A stretch of 64,000 bases of DNA from a virus: the IMG/VR virus record IMGVR_UViG_3300044692_000050, positions 38,341 to 102,340 of that record; one strand, 5' to 3'. The number at the start of each line of letters is the position of its first letter. The first letter of the stretch is position 1. The notes below the pieces were generated by a model, which did not search any database, had not been told where the DNA came from, and saw only the letters and a program-made list of their open reading frames with translations. Shown in pieces: positions 2,145 to 27,421 of this stretch. Made by a program: the position numbers and the translations under genes.

Positions 2145-2173
2145 TTGACCCTGACTCAAGTCTGACTTACGCT
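2145..2173 (+). promoter_or_regulatory. Housekeeping-sigma promoter with operator-like repeats in the spacer
   Basis: TTGACC(2145-2150)-17 nt-TACGCT(2168-2173); spacer holds CTGACTCA and CTGACTTA. Confidence 0.7.
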
Positions 2174-2219
2174 TGCATCAGGTGGGCATCGTGCTCACCG
2201 GAGACCAAGTGGAGCCGAC

Positions 2220-2513
2220 ATGACGACCGGGCTACGCCCAGCCGCACCGAGCGCAGTCAGCCGCAAGAAGGACACGCGCCTGTTCGTCCCGGTGCGCGAA
2301 GCCGCCGACGCGCTCGGCGTATCGCGGTCGACCGTCATGCGGGCCAACGCGAAGGGCCAGTTCCCGCTCGTCAAGATCCTCGGCACATGGCGCACGCCAC
2401 GCCGCTTCATCGATGACTTCCACCGCGCAGCCCTGCACAGCAAGGTCATCGTGCTGGAGGAGTACGCGGCCGAGTGGATGGAGCGCAACCCGGTCGCTGA
2501 GGCAGTGGCGTAG
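2220..2513 (+). CDS. Excisionase/Cro-like HTH DNA-binding protein
   Basis: VPVREAADALGVSRSTVMR...FPLVKILGTWR (HTH_17/Xis-like); GGAG SD. Confidence 0.7.
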   Translation: MTTGLRPAAPSAVSRKKDTRLFVPVREAADALGVSRSTVMRANAKGQFPLVKILGTWRTPRRFIDDFHRAALHSKVIVLEEYAAEWMERNPVAEAVA

Positions 2514-2762
2514 ATGCCCGCGCAGACCCCCGCAAACGACTTCGGCCCCGGTGCTGTGAACACCGGAGCCGAGATGAGCCGTACCCGCCAATCCGCATCA
2601 GCAAGGAGCGAACTCAATGGGGACGATAACACACCTCGCCGACTATCAGGCTCAGCGCCACACCCCGATCCCTTCATGGGTAACCGGTCCCCTGACTCCC
2701 GCTCAGCTCCTGTTCATCCAGCTGGGCAACGAGCAGTACGCGATGCAGCAGGCGGCGACGTC

Positions 2763-3329
2763 ATGACCCCCGAGCCCTGGCTGGCCGCCAGCCTCGCCCG
2801 CATGGCCTCCCTGGATCTGTCCCCCCGGCACATCCTCGGCGAGATCCGCCTCCGCGAGGAGATGCAGCGCACCGCCACCGAGCCGGGTCTCGCTGAGCGC
2901 ATCCTCGCCCGTTCCCCGCTCGCTCCTGGCGCGTCTCCCGCACCGAACCCCCGCCGTGACGGCGGACGTGCCATGGAGCGAGCGCTGAAGGACGAGGGGC
3001 GCGCCAACCCTGCAGGCGCGCCCCTCCCCGAGCCTGACGTAGCCGCCCGCCTCGACGCCCAGTCCGTAGCCGAGCTTGAGGCTGTCGAGGTGGACGCGGA
3101 GAACGCCGAGTGCGAGCACCGCTCCCTCATCGCCCTGGCGAACACCCTCGCTGAACTAGCTGGGTGCGTCATCGACATCGCCACCGGGGACCTGGACACG
3201 GCCCGCGAGTTCCACCTCGAAGCCTCCATGGCGTCCGTGGACGCGGCTCCGCCCGGCACCCGTGAGGGCGAGGCGCTGGCCACCCTGCTGGACTTCGCCG
3301 GCAACGAGATCACCCGGAGGGCCGCCTGA
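2763..3329 (+). CDS. Hypothetical protein
   Basis: GC3-biased ORF coupled to the next gene; start uncertain. Confidence 0.5.
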   Translation: MTPEPWLAASLARMASLDLSPRHILGEIRLREEMQRTATEPGLAERILARSPLAPGASPAPNPRRDGGRAMERALKDEGRANPAGAPLPEPDVAARLDAQSVAELEAVEVDAENAECEHRSLIALANTLAELAGCVIDIATGDLDTAREFHLEASMASVDAAPPGTREGEALATLLDFAGNEITRRAA

Positions 3330-3457
3330 TGGCCCGCAACGCCTTCAGCGCCTCCGACGCCAAGCAACTCACCTTCCAGCAGGTCGTGAAGCTCGGCCTC
3401 GCCCAGAAGGACGACGCCCAGCGTGACAGCGACGACGAGGAATGGGAGGACGAGTGA
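3329..3457 (+). CDS. Small acidic hypothetical protein
   Basis: MARNAFSASDAKQLTFQQVVKLGLAQKDDAQRDSDDEEWEDE; TGATG coupling at both ends. Confidence 0.5.
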   Translation: MARNAFSASDAKQLTFQQVVKLGLAQKDDAQRDSDDEEWEDE

Positions 3458-3645
3458 TGGCCCGCGACCCGCTCCTCAAGGCCCTGCGCGGAATCAAGCG
3501 CGACGCGAATCGTGACATCCAGCTCGGCCGGGACAACGACGGCGACGAGGCGAACCAGCGCTGGCACCTCGCCGACGACGGCCTGCGCGCCGCGCGTCCC
3601 CGCCGCTGCCCCTCCTGGGTCTGCGGCCAGGGACGGAAGTCATGA
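3457..3645 (+). CDS. Small hypothetical protein
   Basis: MARDPLLKALRG...; translationally coupled, GGAGGA SD. Confidence 0.45.
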   Translation: MARDPLLKALRGIKRDANRDIQLGRDNDGDEANQRWHLADDGLRAARPRRCPSWVCGQGRKS

Positions 3646-3751
3646 AGCCCCGCCCCATCCAGGACCGGACCTGGGTTACCGAGGCGGACCCGGCCCTGTC
3701 CCGCGAGGACGGCCCGCTGCAGGTGCTGAGCACCAAGAAGGGCGGCACGTC

Positions 3752-4369
3752 ATGAGCCGCATGAGCCGCGCCGACCGCGCCGCATGGAGGTCGGCGCGGA
3801 CCCTGGCCGATCTCGGCCGCCTCGGCGCGCAGTGGCTGGAAGGCGACCTCGCCATGCAGCCCGCCTGGCGCGCAGGTCCCGACGAGGAGACGCAGCCGCT
3901 GATCCCGGCGCTCGCCGCGCTCAACCGGGCCGGGTTCTACACGACCGCCAGTTCACCCGGCGACGACGGCACGTGCTCCGGCAACGTGCACTGGCGGCAG
4001 CGGGCGGCTGTCGAGGGCTTCGCCGACGCTGACCTCGCGGGGCGCCTGTACCTGGCGGCCCATGAAGCGGGCCTCATCACCGTCACCCATGACCCGGCCA
4101 CGCTGCCCCGCAAGCACTGGGACAAGGCCCTGGAGATTGCGGTGACCGAGCGGGACGGCAGCCCCTACACCTGGTTCGGCCAGCAGTGGTCCCGCCGCGA
4201 GATCCGTTCACGCCGGCACTGGGGCACCTGCCGCCGCGCCGCGCAGGACGCCCTGTGCTCAGCGTGGCAGGTAACCATCGTGGACCCGGAGTGGGTCCGC
4301 GAAGACCTGCTATGGGACGTCCTGGCCCAGGTCGCTGACGCACGCACCCCGGCCGAGGTGGTGCCGTGA
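3752..4369 (+). CDS. DUF6919-like protein (actinomycete mobile elements)
   Basis: MSRADRAAWRSARTLADLG...WLEG...LAALNRAGFYT...WRQRAAVEGF...AWQVTIVDPEW. Confidence 0.65.
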   Translation: MSRMSRADRAAWRSARTLADLGRLGAQWLEGDLAMQPAWRAGPDEETQPLIPALAALNRAGFYTTASSPGDDGTCSGNVHWRQRAAVEGFADADLAGRLYLAAHEAGLITVTHDPATLPRKHWDKALEIAVTERDGSPYTWFGQQWSRREIRSRRHWGTCRRAAQDALCSAWQVTIVDPEWVREDLLWDVLAQVADARTPAEVVP

Positions 4370-4575
4370 ATCTCCGCGTCGTCCTGTCCGCGGTCCTGTC
4401 CGGCGTGCTGATGACCGCCCTGGGCCACCCGGCCCCCAGCCCGGACCCGGCCACCGTCCTGCCCGTCCTGACCGCCGCCGCAGCCGTGGCGCTCGCCTGC
4501 GCCGTCCTGGCCTGGGCCGCGACCAGGGTCATCCACCGCTACTGCACGCGCCGGTACCTGCCGGCCATCACCTGA
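4366..4575 (+). CDS. Small membrane protein
   Basis: Two hydrophobic segments; overlaps the upstream stop. Confidence 0.5.
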   Translation: MNLRVVLSAVLSGVLMTALGHPAPSPDPATVLPVLTAAAAVALACAVLAWAATRVIHRYCTRRYLPAIT

Positions 4576-4587
4576 GAGGACACCGAC

Positions 4588-4800
4588 ATGGGCCTGTTCG
4601 GCAACAGGAACGCCAACCCCAAGTACAGCCGCATCGACTCATCGACCGGCCGCAACAAGCGGGACAAGAGCCCCCGCCGCGAGACCAGGGTGAACCCGCC
4701 GCCCCGCCAGATGGGCACTGCCAAAGTCGTGGACCGCGCCGCGTGGCGGCGCAGTCAGAGGACCGGCCGGCCGATCCAGCGCAAGACCTGGGGATGGTAG
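4588..4800 (+). CDS. Small basic hypothetical protein
   Basis: GAGGA SD plus ATG; Arg-rich. Confidence 0.5.
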   Translation: MGLFGNRNANPKYSRIDSSTGRNKRDKSPRRETRVNPPPRQMGTAKVVDRAAWRRSQRTGRPIQRKTWGW

Positions 4801-4836
4801 TCCCCCGGCACCCGACATCCCTGACTGGAGAATGAA

Positions 4837-7254
4837 GTGAGCGAGCAGGAACGCCCGGACGTGCCGGACTGGGCAGAAGCCGGGGAAGATGAGGCGCTTG
4901 AGGGTGTCGTCGTCCCGCTGCGCCCCGGCGCGCCCGAGCACGCTCTCGCCCCGTCGCCACGCCACTCCGCACCCGGCCAGCCAGGCGAGCTCCGGCAGAT
5001 CATCCCCGGCCAGTTCCGCTCCTGGGACGCGTTCCGCAAGCACTACGGCTGGCACCTGCACCGCGCCGGGCATCACGCCGCCTACCACCTGTTCCCGTCA
5101 CGGGCGATAACCCGGCTCGTCAACACCCTGCGGTATGCGGCAGTCGGCATCGGGAAGTTGCTGGTCGCGCTGATCGCCTGGTGGCACGTCGCCGAGCAGG
5201 CCTACCTGCGCAACGAGGCGGTCGCCGCGAACGACCCCCGGACTTACCTGCAACTGCAGAAAAACGGCAAGGAATCCCGCCTGACCCGCGGACTGGTCCT
5301 GCTCGCCTGCCTCGCCGCCGCGGTCCTCGCCGGCGCGCTGATCACCGTTCACGTCCCGCTGGCGTGGATCCCGATCGGCTGCGTCGCCGTCCCGCTGCTG
5401 GCCTGGGCCGGGCGTCCCGCCGACAAGCCCATCCTCGACTCTGCTGTCACCCCGGTCCACCTCGAGCCGCTGTCCCGCGAGGTAATCGTCCGTGCACTGA
5501 GCACCCTGGGCATCGGCGAGCTCACCAAGGCCATCGGCAGGGATCCCGAGCGCGCCGTGGTCCTAGTCGACCCGATCGTCCGCGACGGGCCCGGCTGGCT
5601 GGCCCGCCTCGACCTGCCGCACGGCGTCACCGCGTCGGCGGTCATGGACAAGCGCGAAGAACTCGCCTCCGGGCTGCGCCGCTCCATCGGCTGCGTGTGG
5701 CCCGAGAACGAGCGCAGGCGCCACCCCGGCGCCCTGAGCCTGTACGTGAGCCACGAGGACATGTCGCAGGCCTCTCAGCCGTCCTGGCCGCTGGCCAGGC
5801 GCGGCGCGGTGGACATGTTCCGGCCGGTCCAGTTCGCCACCGACCAGCGCGGCAAGCCGATCACGATCACGCTCATGTTCGTGTCCATCATCATCGGGAG
5901 CGTCCCGAGGATGGGCAAGACGTTCCTGCTGCGCCTGCTGCTGCTGATCGCCGCCCTCGATGTCCGCGCCGAGCTCCACGTCTACGACTTCAAGGGGACT
6001 GGTGACCTGGCAGCCCTGCGCGCGGTGGCGCACCGTTACCGGGTCGGCGACGACGAGGACGACATCGAGTACTTCGTCGCCGACATGCGCGCCCTGCGCG
6101 AGGAGCTGCGGCGGCGGACCAAGGTGATCCGCGAGATCGCCGAGAAGCAGCCGGCGCTGTGCCCGGAGAACAAGGTGACCCCGGAACTGGCCAGCCGTAA
6201 GGATCTCGGCCTGCACCCCATCGTGATCGCCGCCGACGAGTGCCAGGTGCCGTTCACGCACCCCGGTTACGGCAAGGAACTGGTGGAGATCGCCACCGAC
6301 CTCGCCAAGCGCGGCCCGGCTCTGGGCATGATCGAGGAACTGGCGACCCAGCGCCCGGACGCCAAGGCCATCCCGCGTGACATCAGCGCCAACGCCGTCC
6401 TGCGGATGTGCCTGAAGGTCATGGGTCACATCGAGAACGACATGATCCTCGGCCAGTCGGCACACAAGAACGGCTACAAGGCCACCATGTTCGACTTCGA
6501 TGACAAGGGCATCTTCTACTTCTCCGGCGAGGGCAGCGCGCCGCGGATCTGCCGCAGCTTCGAGATCGACGGCCCGGCCGCCACGAAGATCGCCGCCCGC
6601 GCCCGCGCCATGCGGGAGCAGGCCGGCCGGCTGACCGGCTACGCGCTCGGCCAGGATCAGGCCGAAGAGGTCCGCTCGTTCCTCGCTGACGTGCTGGACG
6701 TGTTCGGCGCTGACGCCAAGCTGTGGCTGACGACGATCGCCGACCGGCTGCACGGCCACGTCTCGGGCGCCTACCCGGACATCACCCCGGAGGCGGTGGC
6801 GAGCCAGCTCCGCGCCCTGAACGTGACCGTGAAGGACGTGCGGGAGCCGGGCCAGGCGGTGCGCAAGGGCTGCGAGTGTACGGGCGTGCTCGCGGCGATG
6901 GGTGATGCGGTCCCGTCCGACCCGCCGCCTGCGCCCCGCCCGGTGCCGCAGCGAGCGCGCGCCGATGCCGTGCCGGATCCCGAAGCGCCCGCGCCGGCGG
7001 ATGACTGGCCGCACGACTTCCAGGATCTGCTCCTCCATGCCGCCGAGCTCATCATCACCACCCAGCACGGCTCAAAGCAGATGCTGCAGCGCAAGCTCCG
7101 GGTCGGGTTCGACCTCGTGGCCCGGATCATGGCCGAGCTCCAGGCCGCGAGGATCGTCGGACCGGAGAACGGCACGCCGGCGCGGGATGTCCTGAAGCGT
7201 CCGGAGGAGCTTGAGGTGACTCTTGAGATGTTGCGGGGAGCGGTCCATGCCTAG
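4837..7254 (+). CDS. TraB-like FtsK/SpoIIIE DNA translocase with extra C-terminal FtsK gamma domain
   Basis: N-terminal TM segments, Walker A GSVPRMGKT, Walker B IAADECQ, ATQRP motif, wHTH-like segment, then LLHAAELIITTQHGSKQMLQRKLRVGF (FtsK gamma). Confidence 0.88.
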   Translation: MSEQERPDVPDWAEAGEDEALEGVVVPLRPGAPEHALAPSPRHSAPGQPGELRQIIPGQFRSWDAFRKHYGWHLHRAGHHAAYHLFPSRAITRLVNTLRYAAVGIGKLLVALIAWWHVAEQAYLRNEAVAANDPRTYLQLQKNGKESRLTRGLVLLACLAAAVLAGALITVHVPLAWIPIGCVAVPLLAWAGRPADKPILDSAVTPVHLEPLSREVIVRALSTLGIGELTKAIGRDPERAVVLVDPIVRDGPGWLARLDLPHGVTASAVMDKREELASGLRRSIGCVWPENERRRHPGALSLYVSHEDMSQASQPSWPLARRGAVDMFRPVQFATDQRGKPITITLMFVSIIIGSVPRMGKTFLLRLLLLIAALDVRAELHVYDFKGTGDLAALRAVAHRYRVGDDEDDIEYFVADMRALREELRRRTKVIREIAEKQPALCPENKVTPELASRKDLGLHPIVIAADECQVPFTHPGYGKELVEIATDLAKRGPALGMIEELATQRPDAKAIPRDISANAVLRMCLKVMGHIENDMILGQSAHKNGYKATMFDFDDKGIFYFSGEGSAPRICRSFEIDGPAATKIAARARAMREQAGRLTGYALGQDQAEEVRSFLADVLDVFGADAKLWLTTIADRLHGHVSGAYPDITPEAVASQLRALNVTVKDVREPGQAVRKGCECTGVLAAMGDAVPSDPPPAPRPVPQRARADAVPDPEAPAPADDWPHDFQDLLLHAAELIITTQHGSKQMLQRKLRVGFDLVARIMAELQAARIVGPENGTPARDVLKRPEELEVTLEMLRGAVHA

Positions 7255-7456
7255 CCTCGTCCCCGTTTTGTGTCGCGGGACCGCAACAGCCCTGCTACCT
7301 GCAGAAATGCTGATCTGCGCGACGGTGCGCAACGCCCCTCCGCACAGACGGGCCGCCCTGACCTGCGTTGTCGCGGAGCCTGGCGCCGCAACACGGAAGC
7401 CCCTCCCGGCCGCCTACATGGGGGTCTCGACCGATGGCGCTGATGCCGCGGCTACA
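7229..7456. repeat. CCGC(A/G)ACA-like 8-mer cluster downstream of the translocase (clt candidate)
   Basis: Copies at 7229(rc), 7271(rc), 7281, 7327, 7369(rc), 7386, 7411, 7449. Confidence 0.55.
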
Positions 7457-7841
7457 CATCACCTGCTCCCGGTGCGGCAAGCCCCGCGAAGGCATCGTCC
7501 ACGTCTGCCGGTCGAACTCCAAGCGCAAGGCCACCGTCAAGCCGGTCATCTCGTTCGGCAAGTGCTCGTGCGGGAAGCCGATCGGGAACCCGCTGACTCA
7601 CGTCTGCCGCAAGAAGTCCGACTTCAAGCGCCGCAAGTCCAAGGCCGAGAAGGCTGCCAGGGCCGCGGCACGCAAGAAGCGGCAGGCCGAGAAGCACGAC
7701 TACCAGGCCTGCGCGGACAAGGACTGCAAGAAGTCGCTGTGCGTGGCCTACAAGACGGGCCGCAAAGACGGCTACGACGAGGGGTTCGAGGAAGGCTACG
7801 GGGCTGGGTTCGCCGCGGGCTCGGCGTCCGGTGCCGCGTGA
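7434..7841 (+). CDS. Cys-rich basic (Zn-finger-like) protein
   Basis: CSRCGK...HVC...CSCGK...HVC; GYDEGFEEGY tail; start inferred at MALMPR. Confidence 0.55.
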   Translation: MALMPRLHITCSRCGKPREGIVHVCRSNSKRKATVKPVISFGKCSCGKPIGNPLTHVCRKKSDFKRRKSKAEKAARAAARKKRQAEKHDYQACADKDCKKSLCVAYKTGRKDGYDEGFEEGYGAGFAAGSASGAA

Positions 7842-7851
7842 GGAGGCTGCC

Positions 7852-8097
7852 GTGCTGAACCTGATCTTGTTCCTGCTCGCCGTCGTCGTCGTTTACGGCC
7901 TGTTCGTGCTGGTCAAGGCGGACAGGCAGTGCGGAACGTGCGGCGGCTGGGGCAACCGGAAGAAGCGCCGCCGCAACAAAGCCTGCTCCCGGTGCCACGG
8001 CACGGGACGCACGTTCTGGCCTGGCGCTCGGCTCGTCCACAAGGGCGCGGCGCTCGGATTGCGGCAGTTGCGCGAGCGATCGGAGCGTGAGTCATGA
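7852..8097 (+). CDS. Membrane-anchored DnaJ-type Zn-finger small protein
   Basis: TM helix then CGTCGGWG...CSRCHGTG; GAGGAGG SD. Confidence 0.6.
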   Translation: MLNLILFLLAVVVVYGLFVLVKADRQCGTCGGWGNRKKRRRNKACSRCHGTGRTFWPGARLVHKGAALGLRQLRERSERES

Positions 8098-8633
8098 CAC
8101 GCGGAACGTGGCAGGGGTCAGGGACCTGGCAGACCAGCAGCCTGAGCCTCGGCGACCTGGTGAAACCGGCCGCCCTGCTGGCCGTCGCCCTTGCCGTCAT
8201 GGCCCTGGTTGCGCAGGTCATCGTCTGGCTGGCTGTCATCCTCGGCGCCTTTCTCGCAGCAGGTACCGCCGCCGTGGTCGTCGTGTGGCGCCTGACTCGC
8301 CGCCGCGAGGCCCGTCACGCCGCCGAGCGTCCGTTCCTGGTCGCCCGCCCGGCTCCCGACGCCCTGACCACGACGGCGATCCCGCAGGTCACGGCGCCTG
8401 CAGTGCAGGTTGTCGAGCACCATCACTACGTACACCAGGTCATCACTGCCCCGGACCCGGCATTCGCCGTCGTCCGGGCCGCGATCACCGGATCAGCAGC
8501 GGAGGGAGGTGAGCAACATGGGCAAGGACGACGCGAACAACAACGACCAGGCACTGAGCGACAAAGAACGCGCAGGGCTGGACGTCGTGCTGACTGCCGG
8601 ACGGTATTTCGGCAGCAAGGACAACCCGAATAA
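8094..8633 (+). CDS. Membrane protein (Spd-like)
   Basis: Two TM segments, EHHHYVH motif, conjugation-block context. Confidence 0.5.
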   Translation: MTRGTWQGSGTWQTSSLSLGDLVKPAALLAVALAVMALVAQVIVWLAVILGAFLAAGTAAVVVVWRLTRRREARHAAERPFLVARPAPDALTTTAIPQVTAPAVQVVEHHHYVHQVITAPDPAFAVVRAAITGSAAEGGEQHGQGRREQQRPGTERQRTRRAGRRADCRTVFRQQGQPE

Positions 8634-8794
8634 CCAGGCGAAAGGCAAGTAGCCGGGGCGGCCTGCCCGCCGTCCGGGCCAGCCTCGCCCCGGCCTGACC
8701 CCACCAGTCCCGCCGGCCGCACACGCCACCGCTGTGCGGCCGGCGGGATCACGACACCGCAAACCTGCCGACACGACGACGACCAGGGGACACG

Positions 8795-9898
8795 ATGAAG
8801 GTCATGGGAAAGCACTCGACGCCGCTCGACGGCGTGACGCTGGCGAACGGCCACGCGCTGGCACCGTTCACCATCCCGGCACCGCTTCAGGTCACCCCGC
8901 GCGGCCCGGCAGCCACCTGGCCGCAAGCTGTCGACGACGACGCGCCAGGTCACTTGCAGCGGTGGCGCGAAGCCGTGACTTCGCACCGCGGCTGGCTCGC
9001 CGCCGTCCCGATCATCCTCGTCAACTCCGTCGCGTTCTGCGGCCAGCTGGCATTCCTGCGCGGTCACCTGCCGTGGATCCTGCCCGGCCAGGTGCTCGTC
9101 GCGGCCACCCTGGAGTCAGTCGCGGTCTACCTGGCATGGCAAGCGCACCTCGCTCTCGCCGCCGATGACTCGGCGCTGCGGCTGCGACTGGCTGCTTACT
9201 CGTTCGCCGCGGTCATCGGCGTCATGAACTATTCGCATTACATGGCGCCGCACTGGCGGCCGACGTTCGCCGCGGTCACCTTCGGCCTGATGTCGCTGTC
9301 GTCGCCGTGGCTATGGTCGGTGCACTCCCGCCGCGCCAGCCGTGACGCGCTGAAGGCAGCCGGGCTGATCGAGGCGCACGCCGTCCGGCTCGGCATGAAC
9401 CGCTGGATGTGGCACCCGGTCAGGTCGTGGCGGGTCATGTTCCGCGCCACCTGGGAAGGCGAGACCGATCCGGCCCGCGCCATCGCCCTGATCGCGCCGC
9501 AAGTCGGCGACCTGGACCGGTTCCAGGTCGCCCCGGAAACCACGCCCGCCGCCGACCCGGAAGTCACCGCTGAGCAGGCCGTCCAGGTCACCCCGGGGCC
9601 GCCCTCGGGTGCCGACCTGGAGCCCGCGCCGGCGGCGGTTCCAAGTCAGCCGCCCCGCCGCCCTGGAGCCGCCGCCAAAGCCGGCCGCAAGTCGGCGCCG
9701 CGATCCGGCAAGCCGGCCGCCCCGGCGCGCATTTCTGACGCCGACCTGCTCGGCCAGATCCGCGGCGTGCTCGCTGACAAGCCGGACGCCAACATCACCG
9801 ACGTGGCGAAGGAGCTAGGCCGCGGCCGGGACCGGATCCGGCCGCTGCTCGAGCAGGCTCGCGCCGCCGCACCCGAGGGACAGGACCCCCGGCCGTGA
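8795..9898 (+). CDS. DUF2637/Spd-like multi-TM protein with Pro-rich linker and C-terminal HTH
   Basis: Four TM helices, low-complexity linker, ITDVAKELGRGRDRIRPLL HTH. Confidence 0.7.
   Translation: MKVMGKHSTPLDGVTLANGHALAPFTIPAPLQVTPRGPAATWPQAVDDDAPGHLQRWREAVTSHRGWLAAVPIILVNSVAFCGQLAFLRGHLPWILPGQVLVAATLESVAVYLAWQAHLALAADDSALRLRLAAYSFAAVIGVMNYSHYMAPHWRPTFAAVTFGLMSLSSPWLWSVHSRRASRDALKAAGLIEAHAVRLGMNRWMWHPVRSWRVMFRATWEGETDPARAIALIAPQVGDLDRFQVAPETTPAADPEVTAEQAVQVTPGPPSGADLEPAPAAVPSQPPRRPGAAAKAGRKSAPRSGKPAAPARISDADLLGQIRGVLADKPDANITDVAKELGRGRDRIRPLLEQARAAAPEGQDPRP
9509..9667. repeat. GACC(C/T)GGA 8-mer cluster (TraB-recognition-sequence-like)
   Basis: GACCTGGA 9509, rc 9522, GCCCCGGA 9530, GACCCGGA 9554, rc 9582, GACCTGGA 9614, rc GACTTGGA 9640, GCCCTGGA 9660. 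Confidence 0.55.
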
Positions 9899-10182
9899 CC
9901 GAACCCCACCCTCCCCACACCGCCGCCGCGATCGACGCCATCGAAGCGGCCATCGACACGGAGACAGACCTCGGCGGCTGGCTGTCCGCCGTCCTGGTCT
10001 ACGCCGCTGCCCGCAAAGGCACCCTGGACGCCCTCACCGCCGGCCGTCCCGGCTCGTGGGAAGCGGCCCATGTCGACCGCCTCGCCCGCGGCCTGGCCTT
10101 CGACGACGACGGGCTGCAGTGGTACCGCGAGGACGACCGGGCGCGGCGTGAGGCCGGGAAGGCGGCACGCAATGACGGCTGA
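9895..10182 (+). CDS. Hypothetical protein
   Basis: Coupled to the upstream gene; ALTAGRPGSWEA. Confidence 0.6.
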   Translation: MTEPHPPHTAAAIDAIEAAIDTETDLGGWLSAVLVYAAARKGTLDALTAGRPGSWEAAHVDRLARGLAFDDDGLQWYREDDRARREAGKAARNDG

Positions 10183-10550: not shown

Positions 10551-11309
10551 TTGAGCAGCGACAACGTGCCCGTGGCCACTGAGGCATCATGCCCCGGCAG
10601 TTGCAACGACCCGTACCGCAAGGCCGTAGCCGCCTACAAGCAGGCACTCGCCGACTACGATCCCCTTGACCCCGAGCAGTCCCGGCCCGAACCCCCCGAG
10701 ATCCGGCCGTGGCCCGGCAACCCGTGGTGCGGACGGTGCAGGTCCCGGATCCGCGAGCAGCTCGCCGAGCTCGACGACCTCGCTGCCCTCCTAGGGGCCG
10801 CTGCCGACGGCCACCGCGCCTCACCAGGCGGCGAGCGGGTCTCCGGGTCCGCCGAGCCGCCATCCCCGTCCCGCGCCGGCGATGACCTCGATGAGCTCAC
10901 GGTCATGCTCTCCGGCTGGGAAGGCGCCTACCGGGACCTGCGGGAGTGGCCGGCGCTCACCCGCCGCGGGAACCTAGCCTCGGTCCTCACCACGTGCGTC
11001 GCGTGGCTGACCCTCCACCTGGACGAGATCTTGCTGGCCCCATTCGCGGCCGATTTCGGCACCGAGGTGATGCAGTGGCATCGCGAGCTCACCGCTAAGT
11101 CCAAGGCCGGGGCGCGGACGCTGCGCAAGCCGCTGCGCTGCCCTCGCTGCCGCCTGCTGCTGCTGACGTGGACCGAAGGCGACGCTGACGTCCGGTGCGG
11201 CAACCCGTCGTGCCACGCGGTGATCCCGCTCGCGGAGTACGAGAACGAGACCGAGCGGGTCGCCGCCGCCCTGGAACGCGGCGAGGCCGACGCGACCGAG
11301 GCGGCCTGA
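10551..11309 (+). CDS. Zn-binding phage protein, candidate late regulator/antiterminator
   Basis: CPGSCN, WCGRC, CPRC...CGNPSC; immediately upstream of a promoter-terminator unit. Confidence 0.55.
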   Translation: MSSDNVPVATEASCPGSCNDPYRKAVAAYKQALADYDPLDPEQSRPEPPEIRPWPGNPWCGRCRSRIREQLAELDDLAALLGAAADGHRASPGGERVSGSAEPPSPSRAGDDLDELTVMLSGWEGAYRDLREWPALTRRGNLASVLTTCVAWLTLHLDEILLAPFAADFGTEVMQWHRELTAKSKAGARTLRKPLRCPRCRLLLLTWTEGDADVRCGNPSCHAVIPLAEYENETERVAAALERGEADATEAA

Positions 11310-11438: not shown

Positions 11439-11690
11439 GTGGCTGGCGACCTTGACGTGAACGCCCTGCTGTCCGGTGCCGACGCGGCCCGGTATGCAGG
11501 GGTGAGCGTACGCGTGATCGTGAACTGGCGGAACCGCGGCCACCTCCCCGTCGCTACCGACGAGCGCGGCAACGAGATCCGCGACAGCCGGGGCCGGCCG
11601 AAGTACCGGCTCCTCGACGTGGCCAAGGCCGAGAACGCGACACGGCAGCGGGCCGAGCAGATGGCCAGCCAGTTGCGCCGCGCCGCCTGA
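11439..11690 (+). CDS. HTH DNA-binding protein
   Basis: GADAARYAGVSVRVIVNWRNRGHL...GRPKYRLLDVAKAE. Confidence 0.75.
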   Translation: MAGDLDVNALLSGADAARYAGVSVRVIVNWRNRGHLPVATDERGNEIRDSRGRPKYRLLDVAKAENATRQRAEQMASQLRRAA

Positions 11691-16937: not shown

Positions 16938-17927
16938 ATGATCGATCGTACATGCCCGCATTGCGGCAACCCAGTGACGCGTGGCCCGCTGGCGGTTTAC
17001 TGCTCTCCGCAGTGCAAATATGCGGCAGCCCATGACCGGGCCGACCTGAACGGGAGCGCGCGAGCCCGAGAGGCGGCACGGCAGGCGCGCAAGGCTGCCG
17101 AGCGGGATGCGAATCGCAAGCCGTGCCCGTATTGCGGCACATCGATGGACGGCTGGCGCATGCAGTGCGGTGCCGCCGAGTGTAAGCGGCGGCTCGTCAG
17201 CGAGCGCAACGCGGCCCGGCAGCGCGAGTACCGTGAGCGCACAGGGAAGTGGCCGAGCCAGCGTTACCGCACTCCCCGCGAGCACGTCTGTGAGGCGTGC
17301 GGCGAGCCGTTCACTTCGCCGGACAAGGCGACCCGGTTCTGCTCGGGCGCGTGCGCGAACAGCGTGCGGCGGTGGACGCGGACGTGCGGCATGTGCGGCG
17401 GTCAGTGGGAGGCGAAGGCCCCGACGGACCTGTTCTGTTCAGCGACCTGCCGCGAGGTGGCCGGCCGAGCGCACCGGGCGCAGGTCATGGTCCGGCCGGG
17501 GTTCCGTGAGCGCCGCTGGATGGCGCTGGCAGTTGTCCGGTCGCTGCGGAAGCGCTGGTATGCGGGTCAGTGCGTGCGGTGCGGCGAGTGGTTCGTTCAC
17601 GATCAGCCGCACACCAGGACATGCTCACGGCGATGCGCGGGGAAGCTCTCGAAGGCGCGGCGCCGGGCTGTCGAGCTGGAGGCGTTCGTTGAGGACGTGG
17701 CCCGCTGGAAGATCTTTGAGCGGGACGGATGGCGTTGCCAGTTGTGCCGTAAGCCAGTCGCGCGCACCAAAAGCGTGCCACACCCGAAGGCACCTGTGCT
17801 CGACCACATCATCCCGCTGGCTGCTGGCGGGACGCATGAGCCGTCCAACGTCCAGTGCGCCCACTTCCTGTGCAACTGCCTGAAAGGCGACCGGGGCGGC
17901 GGCGAGCAGTTGCTGCTGATCGGCTGA
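16938..17927 (+). CDS. Free-standing HNH endonuclease with multiple Zn fingers
   Basis: Repeated CxxCG..F....C S..C; IFERDGWRCQLC...LDHIIPLAAGGTHEPSNVQCAHFLCN. Confidence 0.9.
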   Translation: MIDRTCPHCGNPVTRGPLAVYCSPQCKYAAAHDRADLNGSARAREAARQARKAAERDANRKPCPYCGTSMDGWRMQCGAAECKRRLVSERNAARQREYRERTGKWPSQRYRTPREHVCEACGEPFTSPDKATRFCSGACANSVRRWTRTCGMCGGQWEAKAPTDLFCSATCREVAGRAHRAQVMVRPGFRERRWMALAVVRSLRKRWYAGQCVRCGEWFVHDQPHTRTCSRRCAGKLSKARRRAVELEAFVEDVARWKIFERDGWRCQLCRKPVARTKSVPHPKAPVLDHIIPLAAGGTHEPSNVQCAHFLCNCLKGDRGGGEQLLLIG

Positions 17928-17943
17928 CGATAAGGAGGACGCG

Positions 17944-18114
17944 ATGACTGAGCCGAAGGCCAAGACGGAGAAGCCCGCTGAGCCGGCGACGGTCCGGCGG
18001 CCGGGCGACCAGCCCGATAAGGCCATCTCGGAGGGCGTCATTCTCCCCGAGGAGATGCGGGAGAAGGAAACGGACCCGAAGAAGGTCGAGATCAACAAGA
18101 ACGTCACTAGTTAG
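17944..18114 (+). CDS. Small charged hypothetical protein
   Basis: TAAGGAGG SD; MTEPKAKTEKPAEP... Confidence 0.5.
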   Translation: MTEPKAKTEKPAEPATVRRPGDQPDKAISEGVILPEEMREKETDPKKVEINKNVTS

Positions 18115-18204
18115 CTGCTCTGGCGGCTGCCTGCGTGGCGTCCGCGCTTCCTGTCGCCGGAACGGCAACAGGAGGCTTCCCGGAACGGGAAAGGATGCGA
18201 GGGC

Positions 18205-18642
18205 ATGGGAGTTAAAGGGGCGGTCCCGAAGCGGACCGACCAGCTGCACGGCCACCGGAAGCCCCCGGCGACAGATAAGGCCCCGACTCCGCCCGGGGCG
18301 GCGTCGTACCGGCGCCCGGCGGCTGACAGCACGTGGCATCCGCTGGCGAAACGCTGGTGGAACGCCCTGAGCAAGTCGGGGCAGTCCACGTGGTACCAGC
18401 CGTCTGACTGGGAGCACGCCTACATCTGGGCGGAGATGCTGTCGCGGCAGCTGTTCTCAGCCAAGCCGTCTTCGATGATGCTGGCAGCATGGGATGCGGC
18501 ATCGGTCCGGCTGCTGGTGACCGAGGGAGACCGTCGCAGGATGCGCATCGAGCTCGACAAGGGCGGCGAGGTCGATGCGGATAAGGAAGCCGCTGTAGCG
18601 AGCATGCAGGCGTGGCGTGCCAACCGCGCTAGCGGTTCCTGA
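18205..18642 (+). CDS. Terminase small subunit
   Basis: GAVPKR...WHPLAKRWW...SGQS.WYQPSDW...LLVTEGDRRRMRIEL; overlaps TerL. Confidence 0.85.
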   Translation: MGVKGAVPKRTDQLHGHRKPPATDKAPTPPGAASYRRPAADSTWHPLAKRWWNALSKSGQSTWYQPSDWEHAYIWAEMLSRQLFSAKPSSMMLAAWDAASVRLLVTEGDRRRMRIELDKGGEVDADKEAAVASMQAWRANRASGS

Positions 18643-20365
18643 CCGCCGCCTTCCTGCGCCGGCTGACCGGCTGATCACGCTCCCCGCGGGCGAACCTGAG
18701 CTGACGCTCGGCTGGCATGCGATCGTGTGGGCCGGGACGTACCTGAAGCACCCGAACGGGATCCGGGCGGGGCTGCCGTGGAAGTACACCGACAGCCAGC
18801 GCGCTTTCGTTCTGTGGTGGTACGCGATCCACCCGGACGGCCGGTGGGTCTACCAGCACGGAGTGCGCCGCCGCAGCAAGGGCACTGGCAAGAGCCCGGG
18901 TGCGGCGACTCTGTCGCTGACGGAGCTGCTGGCGCCTGTCCGGTTCGCGGGGCTGGCCGATACGGACGTGCCGTACCTGGAGGGGAACGGCAGGAACGGC
19001 CTCCCCGCCGGGTGGGTGCAGATCGGCCGGGTGATCGGCAAGCCGGTGGCGATGCCGCTAGTGCAGATCGCGGGTGTGTCCGAGGCCGCGACGGCGAACA
19101 CGATGCGTCACGTCCGGGCGATGACGGCGAAGAACTCCAAGGTCGTCCAGGCGTACCACCTTGATCCGGGCAAGACGGTGATCTACACGCCGTCAGGCGG
19201 CCAGCTCGAGGTGATCACGTCGTCGGCGGCTTCGGCTGAGGGGGCCGAGGTGACCGCGGCGTTCCTCGACGAGCCGGAGCACTGGACGCCCGCGTCAGGC
19301 GGGGTTGAGCTCGCCGCGACGATCGACCGCAACCTGGCCAAGTCGGGGTCCCGGGCGATCGAGACGGCGAACGCGTGGGAGCCGGGCGCGGGGTCGGTGG
19401 CTGAGGCGACGTTCGAGGCGTGGTGCGCGCAGGAAGAAGGCCGCACGAAGTCAGGCGCGCTGATCCTGTACGACGCCGTGGTCGCGCCCCCGGACACGGA
19501 CCTGGCCGACGAGGAGTCGCTGCGCAAGGGGATCGCGTTCGCCTATGACGACTCGGACTGGGTTGACCAGCAGGTCATCATGGACCGCATCCTGTCGCTG
19601 CGGACCAAGCCGGACGAGGCGCGGCGGTTCTACCTCAACCAGCCGGTGGCCAGCGCCGATTCGTGGGTGACGCCGCAGGAATGGGCGGTCCTCGCCGATC
19701 CGACACAGGTCATCTGCGATGGCGATGAGATCGTAGCGTTCTTCGACGGCTCATCCAGCCGGGACGCGACGGCCTTGATTGCCTGCCATGTCGAGACGGG
19801 CTATGTGTTCACGGTCGACATATGGGAGCCGGAGCCGGGCCCGTCGCATTCTCCGGGAGCGGCCCGCATCCCGGTCGCCGAGGTCGACGCTGCGGTTGAG
19901 CGGATGTTCGACCGGTGGCAGGTCTGCGCGTTCTTCGCTGACGTGAAGGAATGGGAGTCCTTCGTCAAGGTGACCTGGCCGGAGCGGTACGCGGAGCAGC
20001 TAGAGCTCCACTCGGTGCCGTCGGGCAAGGACCCGCAGGCCATCGCCTGGGACATGCGGACGCACACCTACGAATTCACGCTGGCCGCCGAGCTCACCTT
20101 GACGGAGATCACGGGCGACACCGGGCCCGCGTTCCGTCATGACGGGGATTCGCGGCTAGGTCGGCATGTGGTCAACGCCCGGCGGCATCCGAATCGGTGG
20201 GGCGTCTCGATCGCCAAGGAATCGAAGGATTCGCCAAAGAAGATCGACGCGGCTGTCTGCATGATCGGGGCGCGGCTAGCACGCAGGCTGCTGCTGGCCG
20301 AGCGCGCTAAGCAGCAGCAGAAGGCGAAGAAGCCCAGGTCAGGTAGGGTTCACGGCTTCGCTTAG
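18617..20365 (+). CDS. Terminase large subunit
   Basis: Walker A RSKGTGKS, Walker B FLDEPEHW, nuclease FFDGSSSRDAT and KKIDAAV. Confidence 0.95.
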   Translation: MPTALAVPDRRLPAPADRLITLPAGEPELTLGWHAIVWAGTYLKHPNGIRAGLPWKYTDSQRAFVLWWYAIHPDGRWVYQHGVRRRSKGTGKSPGAATLSLTELLAPVRFAGLADTDVPYLEGNGRNGLPAGWVQIGRVIGKPVAMPLVQIAGVSEAATANTMRHVRAMTAKNSKVVQAYHLDPGKTVIYTPSGGQLEVITSSAASAEGAEVTAAFLDEPEHWTPASGGVELAATIDRNLAKSGSRAIETANAWEPGAGSVAEATFEAWCAQEEGRTKSGALILYDAVVAPPDTDLADEESLRKGIAFAYDDSDWVDQQVIMDRILSLRTKPDEARRFYLNQPVASADSWVTPQEWAVLADPTQVICDGDEIVAFFDGSSSRDATALIACHVETGYVFTVDIWEPEPGPSHSPGAARIPVAEVDAAVERMFDRWQVCAFFADVKEWESFVKVTWPERYAEQLELHSVPSGKDPQAIAWDMRTHTYEFTLAAELTLTEITGDTGPAFRHDGDSRLGRHVVNARRHPNRWGVSIAKESKDSPKKIDAAVCMIGARLARRLLLAERAKQQQKAKKPRSGRVHGFA

Positions 20366-22211: not shown

Positions 22212-22466
22212 ATGGCCGGTGGAGAAATTGCGCATCCAGAGGCCACCGAGAGGCTGATGCGGTATTGGTCGACGGGGCCTGGCGGGGCAAAAATTGGCTG
22301 GAATCGGCCGGGTGATTTCGAGACCTGCAAAATTGAACTCGGGAAATATGTTCCTGAGCATATGCTAGACGGACTCTGCGCCCGGCTGCACCACAGGGCT
22401 ACGGGTGCGTGGCCAGGCCACGCCGCAGGCGAGCAGGCCGCCCACGAGGCCGAGAAGAAGGGCTAG
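22212..22466 (+). CDS. Small head-module protein
   Basis: RYWSTGPGGAKIGWNRPGDFETC...GLCARLHHRATGAWPG. Confidence 0.7.
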   Translation: MAGGEIAHPEATERLMRYWSTGPGGAKIGWNRPGDFETCKIELGKYVPEHMLDGLCARLHHRATGAWPGHAAGEQAAHEAEKKG

Positions 22467-22780
22467 AGGTCTGCCGGATAGATAGGAACCCGAACGCCGA
22501 TCGTCTCGTTGATCAGACGCGGCGGCCCTTCCTTCTCCGTGACGGTGATCTTCCGGCCGAGCATCATGTCATCGGGGTCCGGGGTCCACTTCGACTCATC
22601 ACGAGCCTCGTCGTCGGCGTCTGGCGGCAGGCATGCACGGCGCAGCGCCTTGTACCAGTCCGGACCCATGAGCCAGCGTGTTGAGCCGAGGCTCCGGATG
22701 AACGGGTCGGCCGCGTAATCCGCTTCGACGAACGCCCCGTAGACCTCCATGGGGCTCAGTTCGTCCACGTGTTCACTCAT
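22463..22780 (-). CDS. Antisense leaderless accessory protein
   Basis: TACGCT-N6-ATG. Confidence 0.55.
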   Translation of the reverse strand: MSEHVDELSPMEVYGAFVEADYAADPFIRSLGSTRWLMGPDWYKALRRACLPPDADDEARDESKWTPDPDDMMLGRKITVTEKEGPPRLINETIGVRVPIYPADL

Positions 22781-22809
22781 CTGACCAGCGTAAACGAGCA
22801 GGGGGCGCA

Positions 22810-23667: not shown

Positions 23668-23963
23668 ACGAGTAGCCAGATCACCGCCGCGGTCAGTGCA
23701 ACGAGGCTGATCCCGAAGGCCCTGGCCAGCCAGAGCCGGAGACGCCACCGCCTCTCTTTGGCTGGTGCTTGCAGCGCTGAGAGCTCGGCGCATGTGGCGC
23801 ACATGCCGCCGCCCGGCTGGACTGTCTGGTCGGGCGTGCCGCATTCCGAGCAGGTCCGTATCCGGAGCTCGTCTTCAAGAGGAACCCATCTCGCCGGGTG
23901 GTCGGGGTCACCGCTGCAGGCGTGAGGTTCCGCTGGTTGCCCGCACACGCACATATCAGCCAC
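23664..23963 (-). CDS. Antisense Zn-finger membrane protein
   Basis: CVCG, CSECG, CATC plus C-terminal TM. Confidence 0.5.
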   Translation of the reverse strand: MADMCVCGQPAEPHACSGDPDHPARWVPLEDELRIRTCSECGTPDQTVQPGGGMCATCAELSALQAPAKERRWRLRLWLARAFGISLVALTAAVIWLLV

Positions 23964-24129: not shown

Positions 24130-24235
24130 AACCCCAGCTTAAGGCGGGTGTGGCGCGGTGGCCGGTTACGGCTCGTCCATCCAGCGCTCACCCGGTACCG
24201 ACCCGCTTGTCCCGCAGCCTATGAAGGGGGCCAGG

Positions 24236-24529: not shown

Positions 24530-24607
24530 CCGCAGTACAGCACCACCCCACTAAGGCGCCAGCCGGAACGGCAGGCGCCTTTTCCATGTCCCGGAACGGG
24601 AGAACCC

Positions 24608-27406: not shown

Positions 27407-27421
27407 CGGGAAGGGGCCGAG

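What the first reader, a model, noticed from the sequence alone, without database searches (positions are those of the whole stretch)
2145..10182. Conjugative TraB/Spd (AICE-like) module contiguous with a complete siphovirus morphogenesis region
Seen: a co-directional run of coupled genes with an Xis-like HTH, a membrane-anchored FtsK/SpoIIIE ATPase, several small TM proteins and a DUF2637/Spd-like protein, leading without an obvious boundary into late control and virion genes. Established: mycelial actinomycete plasmids and AICEs transfer dsDNA with a single TraB plus clt and spread via Spd proteins. Inference: a phage-AICE hybrid with two transmission routes (virion and hypha-to-hypha conjugation).
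Basis: partly seen in the sequence, partly recalled or inferred. Interest (0 to 1): 0.85.

Follow-up and report, generated by a model that had tools for sequence, protein, structure and literature searches.

The report
Temperate phage carrying TraB conjugation cassette
A roughly 100-kb integrase-bearing tailed phage of a soil actinomycete carries, as a native part of its genome, the one-protein DNA pump (TraB) and docking site (clt) that Streptomyces plasmids use for mating, so it may also spread without virus particles; similar hybrids are already known and turn out to be fairly common.

Summary
Window 3.7-10.2 kb encodes an intact TraB-type FtsK-like dsDNA translocase (4837-7254) with conserved partner genes. 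Directly after its stop lies a clt-like site built on the same plan as the experimentally defined clt of plasmid pSVH1.

The cassette sits between early genes and a complete siphovirus late region, on a single 102-kb IMG/VR virus record (CheckV 98%). That record has one tyrosine integrase. It has no second recombinase, no internal att-like repeats and no compositional break, so this is one replicon and not two tandem elements.

It is not a whole AICE. AICE-type Rep (prim-pol, RepAM), a GntR Kor regulator and Nudix Pif are absent, and homology to Spd proteins is not demonstrable.

The design is recurrent. 18 of 26 TraB-bearing IMG/VR records also carry capsid, portal or TerL genes, including DTR-bounded genomes. 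The circular replicon pPaSha2 has the same combination. Plasmid-phages pZL12 and pFP4 are published precedents. This scan has already noted about 50 similar cases on other DNA.

Actual virion-independent transfer is inferred and was not tested. Features specific to this case are the predicted integrative lifestyle, an extra FtsK-gamma domain on TraB, and a second 8-mer array (GACCYGGA) inside the DUF2637-like gene.

The parts
2220..2513 (+). 97-aa HTH_17/excisionase-family DNA-binding protein (weak match); regulator or RDF candidate; not conserved with TraB in relatives
   Evidence: absent from the synteny tables
2514..3329 (+). 271-aa protein of unknown function, no family match
3749..4369 (+). 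DUF6919 protein (the ORF is open from 3512; the domain starts near the internal ATG); conserved upstream of TraB in relatives L011, L039, L040, L042, L059
   Evidence: Pfam E 1.7e-45; synteny
4366..4575 (+). 69-aa protein with two hydrophobic segments; start overlaps the preceding stop; homologue in L042
4588..4800 (+). 70-aa basic protein, unknown function
4837..7254 (+). TraB-type FtsK-like dsDNA translocase: N-terminal membrane helices, RecA-like motor, winged-helix domain 1 (aa 615-688), Pro-rich linker, appended FtsK-gamma winged helix (aa 728-790)
7255..7433 (.). clt-like cis site: inverted pair TGTCGCGG..CCGCAACA, degenerate box (CTGCTACCTGCAG), direct words GCGCGAC/GCGCAAC/CCGCACA, exact box CTGACCTGCG at 7358, second inverted pair, then the ribosome-binding region of the next gene
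7434..7841 (+). Cys-rich (zinc-binding-like) protein (longest ORF from 7368); co-conserved directly after TraB in 36 loci
7831..8097 (+). 88-aa protein with one TM segment and a CxxCxGxG zinc motif; co-conserved in 27 loci
8094..8633 (+). 179-aa single-TM protein, no family match
8795..9898 (+). DUF2637-like polytopic membrane protein with a long linker and a conserved C-terminal HTH-like domain
9506..9667 (.). Second word array: GACCTGGA x4 plus GACCCGGA x1 in alternating orientation, plus two one-mismatch copies; lies in the linker-coding part of the DUF2637-like gene; candidate protein-binding site
9895..10182 (+). 95-aa protein; start overlaps the preceding stop; homologue near TraB in L053
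10303..10473 (+). 56-aa single-TM protein
10551..11309 (+). 252-aa phage-type DNA-binding protein with a zinc ribbon (phrog_1568); a CTGACCTGC copy lies at its 3' end (11306)
11439..11690 (+). 83-aa HTH_17/MerR-like DNA-binding protein
16938..20365 (+). Packaging genes: HNH endonuclease (16938-17927), TerS (18205-18642), TerL (18617-20365)
20694..37140 (+). Head and tail genes: SPP1-type portal, MuF/VG15-like, scaffold, HK97-type capsid, tail genes, tape measure with NlpC/P60 domain
57138..58878 (+). Lysis enzymes: N-acetylmuramoyl-L-alanine amidase and lysozyme-like (SLT_3) protein
63381..63590 (-). 69-aa strong HTH_17/MerR (excisionase-family) protein; homologues lie near TraB in 13 other loci; about 3 kb from the integrase if the contig is circularised; best RDF/regulator candidate

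Best explanation
The stretch is a genuine TraB-clt double-stranded-DNA transfer cassette that is an integral, inherited part of a temperate siphovirus genome. The integrase lies on the same contig, outside the window, at C1:2792-4192.

Shown:
- An intact TraB homologue with a membrane anchor, a conserved ATPase motor and winged-helix DNA readers.
- A cognate repeat site directly 3' of traB, built like the pSVH1 clt.
- A conserved set of small membrane and zinc-binding partner genes.
- No internal element boundary.

Inferred mechanism: when the phage genome is excised or replicating as a circle, membrane-anchored TraB hexamers load on the clt words (CCGCAACA/GCGCRAC). Using ATP, they pump the unprocessed dsDNA replicon through the envelope into a neighbouring hypha, or across septal cross-walls, helped by the co-encoded membrane proteins. 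The integrase then establishes the element in the recipient. Virion production remains the second, long-range route.
For: TraB identity:
- BLASTP E 7e-34 to the experimentally characterised pSVH1 TraB.
- Best database hits are small actinomycete plasmids and AICE-like elements at 42-47% identity, and a MAG element at 66%.
- FtsK motor fold.
- Invariant P-loop and Walker B across 24 relatives.

clt:
- In pSVH1 the GACCCGGA array is followed by CTGACCTGCG right after traB.
- The same box lies within 250 nt of the TraB stop in 39 of 102 loci, against about 2% expected, and at +104 nt in this phage.
- Close relatives keep the plan 'inverted word, box, 3-5 direct words, box, inverted word' while the word itself changes between elements.
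- Here, 3 of the 9 CCGCAACA copies in the contig lie within 165 bp at 7229-7393.

Conserved synteny: DUF6919, TM protein, TraB, Cys-rich protein, TM/CxxC protein.

One replicon:
- A single integrase, with no serine recombinase or resolvase.
- No att-like repeats and no tRNA.
- The tetranucleotide signature of the module chunks (r 0.92 and 0.89) falls within the contig's own range of 0.78-0.93.

Recurrence:
- 18 of 26 TraB-bearing IMG/VR records carry capsid, portal or TerL genes, including all nine records that are at least 90% complete and the DTR-bounded G015 and G020.
- The circular replicon pPaSha2 has DUF2637-FtsK plus a full virion gene set.

Precedent:
- pZL12 transfer needs a major tra gene plus two adjacent genes (PMC3583192).
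Against: - No functional data exist. Transfer, pock formation and inclusion of the module in packaged DNA of this particular phage are all untested.
- The record is a 'linear' IMG/VR contig without defined ends, and its host is unknown.
- The usual Kil-Kor control of traB (a GntR repressor) is absent, so regulation is unexplained.
- Accessory proteins show no significant similarity to pSVH1 Spd proteins.
- The clt words here are fewer and less regular than in many relatives.
- FtsK-like genes are also common in virulent actinophages, where a conjugative role is implausible. Those are, however, a different and more distant family.
Confidence: 0.6

Rival explanations
1. The TraB-like pump serves a phage function other than horizontal transfer. 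Examples: pumping or segregating the prophage or replicating genome into spore compartments, clearing DNA from closing septa, or excluding or interfering with incoming plasmids and phages. In that reading the site after traB is simply its loading or regulatory site.
For: - The protein carries an extra chromosomal-type FtsK-gamma domain (Pfam E 6.8e-14; PDB gamma domains; separate winged helix in the model), which is typical of segregation translocases.
- The contig has no ParA, so another segregation device would be useful if the element replicates extrachromosomally.
- FtsK-like genes are widespread in actinophages, virulent ones included.
- Thoma et al. proposed only intramycelial spreading of phage DNA for phage SpdB2 homologues (PMC4447253).
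Against: - The closest relatives of the motor are the transfer genes of AICE-like plasmids, not chromosomal FtsK.
- The cis site has the architecture of a proven clt.
- Most relatives lack the gamma domain, so gamma is an add-on and not the core function.
Confidence: 0.2
2. Two separate elements lie side by side or nested: an AICE-like conjugative element inserted into, or next to, a prophage. On this reading the contiguity is accidental and the cassette is not packaged.
For: - Tandem accretion of integrative elements is common.
- Minus-strand blocks and a 667-nt gap lie between the cassette and the packaging genes.
- In one relative (G005) int, DUF2637 and TraB are contiguous and lie 22 kb from the capsid genes.
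Against: - There is only one integrase on 102 kb, 39 kb away and separated from the cassette by phage-type genes. There is no serine recombinase.
- No AICE Rep, Kor or Pif genes.
- No direct repeats of 19 nt or more around the module, and no tRNA.
- Uniform composition.
- The same combination occurs within DTR-bounded 38-43 kb records and in a circular 42-kb replicon.
Confidence: 0.07
3. The cassette is an inactive remnant of a past recombination with a plasmid or AICE and has no present function.
For: - The clt words are few and one of the two boxes is degenerate.
- No Kor-type repressor is present.
Against: - An 805-codon ORF is intact with all catalytic motifs.
- GC3 of 0.91 is typical of expressed genes in this genome.
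- Partner genes are intact and syntenic in dozens of relatives.
Confidence: 0.08
4. The contig is an assembly chimera that joins a conjugative element to a phage.
For: - It is a metagenome-type record without terminal repeats, and its first bases are a poly-G run.
Against: - No compositional break.
- Phage-type genes lie on both sides of the cassette.
- Independent records show the same linkage.
Confidence: 0.03

Closest known systems
traB-clt-spd transfer region of Streptomyces venezuelae plasmid pSVH1 (NC_007431.1)
   Same: - Homologous TraB (29% identity over 407 aa, E 7e-34).
- The cis site lies directly after the traB stop, with repeated 8-bp words followed by the box CTGACCTGCG.
- A co-directional operon of small membrane proteins with overlapping starts and stops (PMC4447253).
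   Different: - The word is CCGCAACA/GCGCRAC here, not GACCCGGA.
- There is no GntR TraR repressor.
- The accessory proteins are not detectably homologous to SpdB2, SpdB3, Spd79 or SpdA, and the sps palindrome is absent.
- TraB carries an extra FtsK-gamma domain.
- The carrier is a 102-kb phage, not a 12.6-kb rolling-circle plasmid.
Streptomyces plasmid-phages pZL12/phiZL12 (Zhong et al. 2010) and pFP4 (Chen et al. 2012)
   Same: One replicon that encodes both a virion gene set and a tra locus. They are described as able to conjugate as episomal DNA and also to produce infective particles (PMC4170104; PMC3583192).
   Different: - Those are autonomously replicating plasmid-prophages with ParAB (PMC4487206).
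- This contig has a tyrosine integrase and no ParA, so it is predicted to integrate.
- I could not compare sequences directly, because the pZL12 paper (PMC2897331) is not held.
- A pZL12-sized Streptomyces phage-plasmid that I could inspect (NZ_CP108705.1) shares only structural genes and has no TraB homologue.
Actinomycete integrative and conjugative elements (pSAM2, SLP1, pMEA300 type); nearest sequenced example NZ_CP107792.1 (18 kb)
   Same: - A tyrosine integrase plus a TraB-type single-protein dsDNA transfer system.
- NZ_CP107792.1 has the closest plasmid TraB (47% identity), next to a DUF2637 gene.
   Different: - It fails the Int+Rep+Tra definition of Ghinet et al. (PMC3218068): no prim-pol or RepAM.
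- No GntR Kor or Nudix Pif.
- About 100 kb with a complete virion and lysis gene set, compared with the 11-18 kb AICEs cited here.
Other TraB-bearing phage-like replicons in public data: Pseudonocardia alni pPaSha2 (CP052773.1) and IMG/VR records such as IMGVR_UViG_3300046689_000435 (DTR, 38 kb) and IMGVR_UViG_3300046524_000291 (DTR, 43 kb)
   Same: TraB homologue (42-46% identity), usually with DUF2637 and an integrase, on the same replicon as capsid, portal or terminase genes. TraB often lies a few kb upstream of TerL.
   Different: - They are smaller (38-43 kb).
- Their TraB lacks the gamma domain.
- Their structural modules belong to other lineages.
- None has been described functionally, as far as the held literature shows.
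Streptomyces phage Hiyaa gp98 (membrane protein) with gp102 (annotated FtsK DNA translocase); SpdB2-like genes of phiC31 and VWB
   Same: - An isolated, virion-sequenced Streptomyces phage carries a homologue of the DUF2637-like protein (E 5e-20) 2 kb from a roughly 700-aa translocase.
[quoted passage not shown]
   Different: Hiyaa's translocase is only remotely similar to this TraB, with only the P-loop region aligning (E 0.31). No clt analysis was done for Hiyaa.

Membership tests
TraB (Streptomyces-type conjugative dsDNA translocase) | FtsK/SpoIIIE-type hexameric motor with intact Walker A and Walker B | tested here: met
   PDB FtsK motor E 4e-6; Foldseek 6t8o E 5e-10; GSxPRMGKT and DE invariant in 24 relatives. 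The Pfam FtsK_SpoIIIE match alone is below the cut-off.
TraB (Streptomyces-type conjugative dsDNA translocase) | Sequence homology to an experimentally characterised TraB | tested here: met
   BLASTP to pSVH1 TraB: 29% identity over 407 aa, E 7e-34
TraB (Streptomyces-type conjugative dsDNA translocase) | N-terminal membrane anchor | tested here: met
   Hydrophobic segments at aa 101-119 and 153-171; long helices 87-192 in the model. This is a prediction only.
TraB (Streptomyces-type conjugative dsDNA translocase) | C-terminal winged-helix domain that reads the clt repeats | tested here: inconclusive
   The AlphaFold model shows a helix-strand-helix-helix-hairpin unit at aa 615-688 with conserved residues. 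DNA binding was not tested, and the domain was not fold-searched on its own.
TraB (Streptomyces-type conjugative dsDNA translocase) | Cognate clt: clustered 8-bp repeats adjacent to traB | tested here: met
   Words plus the CTGACCTGCG box at 7255-7433, the same plan as pSVH1 and relatives. Function was not tested.
TraB (Streptomyces-type conjugative dsDNA translocase) | Mediates conjugal transfer and pock formation | not testable with these tools
   Needs mating assays
AICE (Int + Rep + Tra, Ghinet et al. 2011) | Integrase of the element | tested here: met
   One tyrosine integrase at C1:2792-4192. It lies 39 kb from traB.
AICE (Int + Rep + Tra, Ghinet et al. 2011) | AICE-type replication gene (prim-pol, RepAM/DUF3631, RepSA) | tested here: not met
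   No PF09250 and no PF12307 match in the contig. The PF12307 control rang nowhere, so that negative is weak. RepSA could not be tested because no model was available.
AICE (Int + Rep + Tra, Ghinet et al. 2011) | Kor-type GntR repressor and Nudix Pif (typical but not universal) | tested here: not met
   No PF00392 and no PF00293 match in the contig
Spd spreading proteins (SpdB2, SpdB3, Spd79, SpdA) | Detectable homology to a characterised Spd protein | tested here: not met
   BLASTP of all module proteins against all pSVH1 ORFs gives nothing below E 0.03. Profile of the DUF2637-like family against SpdB2: hhalign probability 7%. The sps palindrome is absent. Spd proteins are known to be highly variable, so an analogous function is not excluded.
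DUF2637 (PF10935) | Match to the Pfam model above the gathering score | tested here: inconclusive
   19.4 bits against a cut-off of 22.8, E 0.001. hhalign to a bona fide DUF2637 protein: probability 43%, E 2.5e-4. One family member carries PF10935 in precomputed annotation.
Plasmid-phage of the pZL12 type | Virion gene set and tra locus on one replicon | tested here: met
Plasmid-phage of the pZL12 type | Autonomous plasmid maintenance (ParA/ParB partition) | tested here: not met
   No ParA-type AAA_31 match. ParB and RepA were not searched.
Temperate tailed phage (siphovirus-type Caudoviricetes) | TerS/TerL, portal, HK97-type capsid, tape measure, lysin, integrase | tested here: met
   CheckV completeness 98% as given by the tool

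The most novel reading that the evidence does not exclude
An integrating tailed phage is truly self-transmissible by TraB-clt conjugation or hyphal spreading, so that lysogeny can spread through a mycelium or to new strains without lysis or receptors. In addition, its TraB has evolved two DNA-reading heads: the TraB winged helix for the clt words, and an appended FtsK-gamma domain for a second motif, possibly the GACCYGGA array or chromosomal motifs. That could also let the phage mobilise host DNA.
Probability: 0.3. Interest if true: 0.75.

Novelty: new variant of a known kind. Interest (0 to 1): 0.5.

Why it matters
If the cassette works, this phage and its many relatives have a virion-independent route for spreading. 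That route would bypass receptor-based host range and resistance, would let a prophage colonise a whole mycelium from one infected compartment, and would blur the line between temperate phages and AICEs in filamentous actinomycetes.

For gene-flow studies, prophages of antibiotic producers could then count as conjugative elements too. TraB is known to mobilise chromosomal markers through clt-like sequences (PMC4170104).

A practical by-product is the conserved post-traB architecture: element-specific words framed by the CTGACCTGCG box. It allows clt sites to be predicted from sequence in uncharacterised TraB elements.

Tried and rejected
- Megablast of the module against phage and plasmid collections found no match.
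- A single-protein scan of viral contigs found nothing. Only the alignment-based scan worked.
The metagenome scan returned mainly short contigs for them.
- The pZL12 paper PMC2897331 is not held. A literature search on 'Hiyaa' returned only irrelevant papers.
- Searches of the held library for a systematic description of TraB in integrating phages found none.
- SpdB2 and SpdA homology, and the sps palindrome, were tested and not found.
- An internal att site or second recombinase was looked for and not found.
- The idea that the post-TraB palindromes are SpdA-type sps sites was rejected, because pSVH1's sps is a different word (CGTCAC-T-GTGACG).
- The idea that GACCYGGA behaves like a polar KOPS-type motif was rejected: 11 plus-strand against 9 minus-strand copies, with no skew.
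- The L050 'second array' could be explained by a shared VQVTP-like peptide, so it does not confirm a DNA-level signal.

Full report
**Context.** The window is the last 64 kb of a single 102,340-bp contig. The tools identify it as an IMG/VR virus record classed 'linear', with CheckV completeness 98%. It has no terminal repeats, and it begins with a poly-G run that is probably a sequencing artefact. GC is 63-75% throughout, so I called genes by third-position GC.

**What the window encodes.**
- Early part of the window:
  - 656-1219 (−): DUF6879 protein.
  - 1299-2138: HTH_31+DUF5753 regulator.
  - 2220-2513: weak HTH_17/excisionase-family protein.
  - 2514-3329: 271-aa protein of unknown function.
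  - 3749-4369: DUF6919 protein.
  - 4366-4575: 69-aa protein with two TM segments.
  - 4588-4800: 70-aa basic protein.
  - 4837-7254: 805-aa FtsK-like protein.
  - about 7434-7841: Cys-rich protein.
  - 7831-8097: TM/CxxC protein.
  - 8094-8633: single-TM protein.
  - 8795-9898: DUF2637-like protein.
  - 9895-10182: 95-aa protein.
- Several of these starts overlap the preceding stop codon.
- Downstream come a small TM protein, a phage-type DNA-binding protein (phrog_1568), a second HTH_17 gene, two short minus-strand blocks and an FHA-domain gene.
- After a 667-nt gap come HNH, TerS, TerL, an SPP1-type portal, a MuF-like protein, scaffold, an HK97-type capsid, a tape measure with an NlpC/P60 domain, Gly-rich fibres, a pectate-lyase-like spike, amidase and a lysozyme-like protein.
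- The left 38 kb of the contig holds one tyrosine integrase (C1:2792-4192), endonuclease VII, DNA methylases, DUF5131, a PDDEXK exonuclease and several HTH regulators.
The run to the virion genes is not strictly co-directional, and the 'Xis-like' and 'DUF2637' labels rest on sub-threshold matches.

**The translocase is a TraB.**
- Its body (aa 34-660) finds no close relative in about 50,000 phage records, where only the C-terminal gamma domain matches.
- It matches small actinomycete plasmids strongly. The best hit (47% identity) is an 18-kb Streptomyces plasmid with classical AICE content: GntR, Nudix, DUF2637, FtsK, prim-pol, HTH and Int.
- It aligns with the experimentally characterised TraB of pSVH1 at E 7e-34.
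- The P-loop (GSxPRMGKT) and Walker B (DE) are invariant in 24 relatives.
- An AlphaFold model (mean pLDDT 69) shows membrane helices, a RecA-like motor, a winged-helix unit at aa 615-688, a disordered linker and a second winged helix at aa 728-790.
- Foldseek ranks FtsK motor structures first, then the conjugative coupling protein TcpA, then EssC/EccC.
- In the 5.8-billion-protein database the family has two forms: about 685 aa, and about 800 aa with the extra Pfam FtsK_gamma domain. This protein belongs to the second, rarer form.

**The cis site.**
- In pSVH1, five of the seven GACCCGGA copies lie at 8158-8256, directly after the traB stop, and CTGACCTGCG follows at 8288.
- An unbiased 8-mer cluster scan of TraB-bearing loci shows element-specific word arrays abutting TraB in many of them.
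- The box [CT]TG[AG]CCTGC lies on the TraB strand within 250 nt of the stop in 39 of 102 loci, against a background of 0.02 per 250 nt, and at recurring offsets.
- In the closest, gamma-bearing relatives, the 150-180 nt between TraB and the Cys-rich gene always reads: inverted pair of a word, box, three to five direct words, box, inverted word, CCCATGGGG. The word itself changes between elements: CGCAAC, CGCGAC, CGCTAC, CGGAAC, CGAAAC or CGTAAC.
- This phage has the same plan at 7255-7433, with words TGTCGCGG/CCGCAACA, GCGCGAC, GCGCAAC and CCGCACA, one degenerate box and one exact box at 7358. Three of the nine CCGCAACA copies in the contig lie within 165 bp here.
- A conserved architecture with changing words is what one expects of a protein-DNA recognition pair that co-evolves. 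I take this region as the clt.

**A second array.**
- GACCTGGA x4 plus GACCCGGA x1 in alternating orientation lie at 9509-9621, with two one-mismatch copies extending the array to 9667. This is the tightest four-copy 8-mer cluster in the whole contig, and none of 60 order-2 Markov simulations matched it.
- The array lies in the linker-coding part of the DUF2637-like gene, whose family has a conserved HTH-like C-terminus.
- A relative (L050) has a similar word cluster at the same place, but it overlaps a shared peptide motif, so DNA-level conservation is not established.
- I regard this as a candidate binding site, for that protein or for the gamma domain, at roughly one chance in three.

**One replicon or two?**
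- The contig has one tyrosine integrase. It has no large serine recombinase, no resolvase and no ParA.
- It has no prim-pol, RepAM, GntR or Nudix.
- There are no tRNA genes.
- No exact direct repeat longer than 18 nt involves the module region.
- The tetranucleotide signature of the two 6.7-kb chunks that cover the module (r 0.92 and 0.89 to the rest) lies within the contig's own range of 0.78-0.93.
- The cassette is the transfer part of an AICE-like element only. Integration, and presumably replication, are the phage's.

**Recurrence.**
- An alignment-based scan of IMG/VR gave 26 records with a TraB relative.
- 14 of these encode an HK97-type capsid, three more an SPP1-type portal and one more a TerL, giving 18 of 26. 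That includes all nine records that are at least 90% complete and two DTR-bounded records of 38 and 43 kb.
- In several, TerL lies 2-3 kb downstream of TraB. 14 of the 26 carry an integrase and 8 carry DUF2637.
- Pseudonocardia alni pPaSha2, a circular 42-kb 'plasmid' of a cultured strain, has DUF2637-FtsK (42% identity) plus terminase, portal, protease, capsid, holin, Bet and an integrase.
- The isolated Streptomyces phage Hiyaa has a homologue of the DUF2637-like protein 2 kb from an annotated FtsK translocase of a distant type.
- Conversely, the closest genomic relative (66% identity, in a MAG) sits in an element with an integrase 8 kb away, in a genome with no capsid match.
- The metagenome scan shows that the core DUF6919, TM, TraB, Cys-rich, TM/CxxC order is conserved in dozens of short contigs.
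- The family therefore moves between AICE-like and phage backbones.

**Literature.**
- TraB binds 8-bp repeats in clt and pumps unprocessed dsDNA. spd genes form translationally coupled operons. [quoted passage not shown] - pZL12-type plasmids carry ParAB (PMC4487206).
- FtsK-like genes are repeatedly noted in Streptomyces phages without a functional proposal.
- I found no paper in the held library that describes TraB-clt cassettes in integrase-bearing phages. This is absence from the library, not proof of absence.
- This scan has about 50 earlier notes, from at least 45 genomes, describing the same kind of hybrid. They agree with what I found independently.

**Verdict.**
- The structural claim, an intact TraB-clt cassette native to a temperate siphovirus genome, is well supported (about 0.85).
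- The functional claim, virion-independent cell-to-cell movement of the phage replicon, is a reasonable inference from homology, anatomy and the plasmid-phage precedent (about 0.5-0.6 taken alone).
- It is a variant of a known kind (plasmid-phages and AICEs), distinguished by the predicted integrative lifestyle, the size, the gamma-bearing TraB and the second array.
- Interest is moderate: a good, testable example, but neither unique nor unprecedented.

Noticed in passing
window 7358, 11306, 63624; pSVH1 L038:8288; 39 of 102 TraB loci: A conserved box, CTGACCTGC(G), follows traB from pSVH1 through to phage-borne TraBs. The two other copies in this contig lie just upstream of the two HTH_17 genes (11439-11690 and 63381-63590). 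Its role (loading site, operator or promoter element) is unknown, and I did not find it named in the papers I read.
   Followed up: partly
window 63381-63590 (-): A 69-aa strong HTH_17/MerR excisionase-family protein (E 1e-13) has homologues within a few kb of TraB in 13 other loci. It is a better Xis/RDF or tra-regulator candidate than the weak HTH at 2220-2513.
   Followed up: partly
window 656-2138: A divergent pair, DUF6879 (−) and HTH_31+DUF5753 (+), lies just upstream of the module. Homologous pairs lie near TraB in L022, L071, L112 and L115.
   Followed up: no
window 54816-56027 (-): An IS605-type OrfB/TnpB gene (HTH_OrfB, OrfB_IS605, Cas12f1-like TNB) sits between the tail-fibre genes and the lysis genes.
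   Followed up: no
window 60557-62200 (-): A TROVE/Ro60 homologue lies at the right end of the phage genome. First-reader notes on the same window mention adjacent Y-RNA-like units.
   Followed up: no
window 15455-15760 (+): A small FHA-domain protein lies in the block between the transfer cassette and the HNH/terminase genes.
   Followed up: no
L004/L005 (CP052773.1, Pseudonocardia alni pPaSha2): This record, deposited as a plasmid, is a complete phage-like replicon (terminase, portal, protease, capsid, holin, Bet, integrase) that also carries DUF2637-FtsK. It is a cultured-strain candidate for testing TraB function in a phage.
   Followed up: partly
L008/L009 (NZ_CP108705.1, Streptomyces sp. 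NBC_01005, 88 kb): A ParAB phage-plasmid whose terminase and tail genes are related to this phage, but which has no TraB homologue. Related virion modules therefore occur with and without the cassette.
   Followed up: partly
L037 (Streptomyces phage Hiyaa, MK279841.1) genes 98 and 102: An isolated phage carries a DUF2637-like membrane protein next to a roughly 700-aa FtsK-type translocase of a distant family. This may be an independent version of the same pairing.
   Followed up: partly
contig C1:1-40 (outside the window): The contig begins with a run of G and GC-only sequence, probably a sequencing or assembly artefact at the contig end.
   Followed up: no
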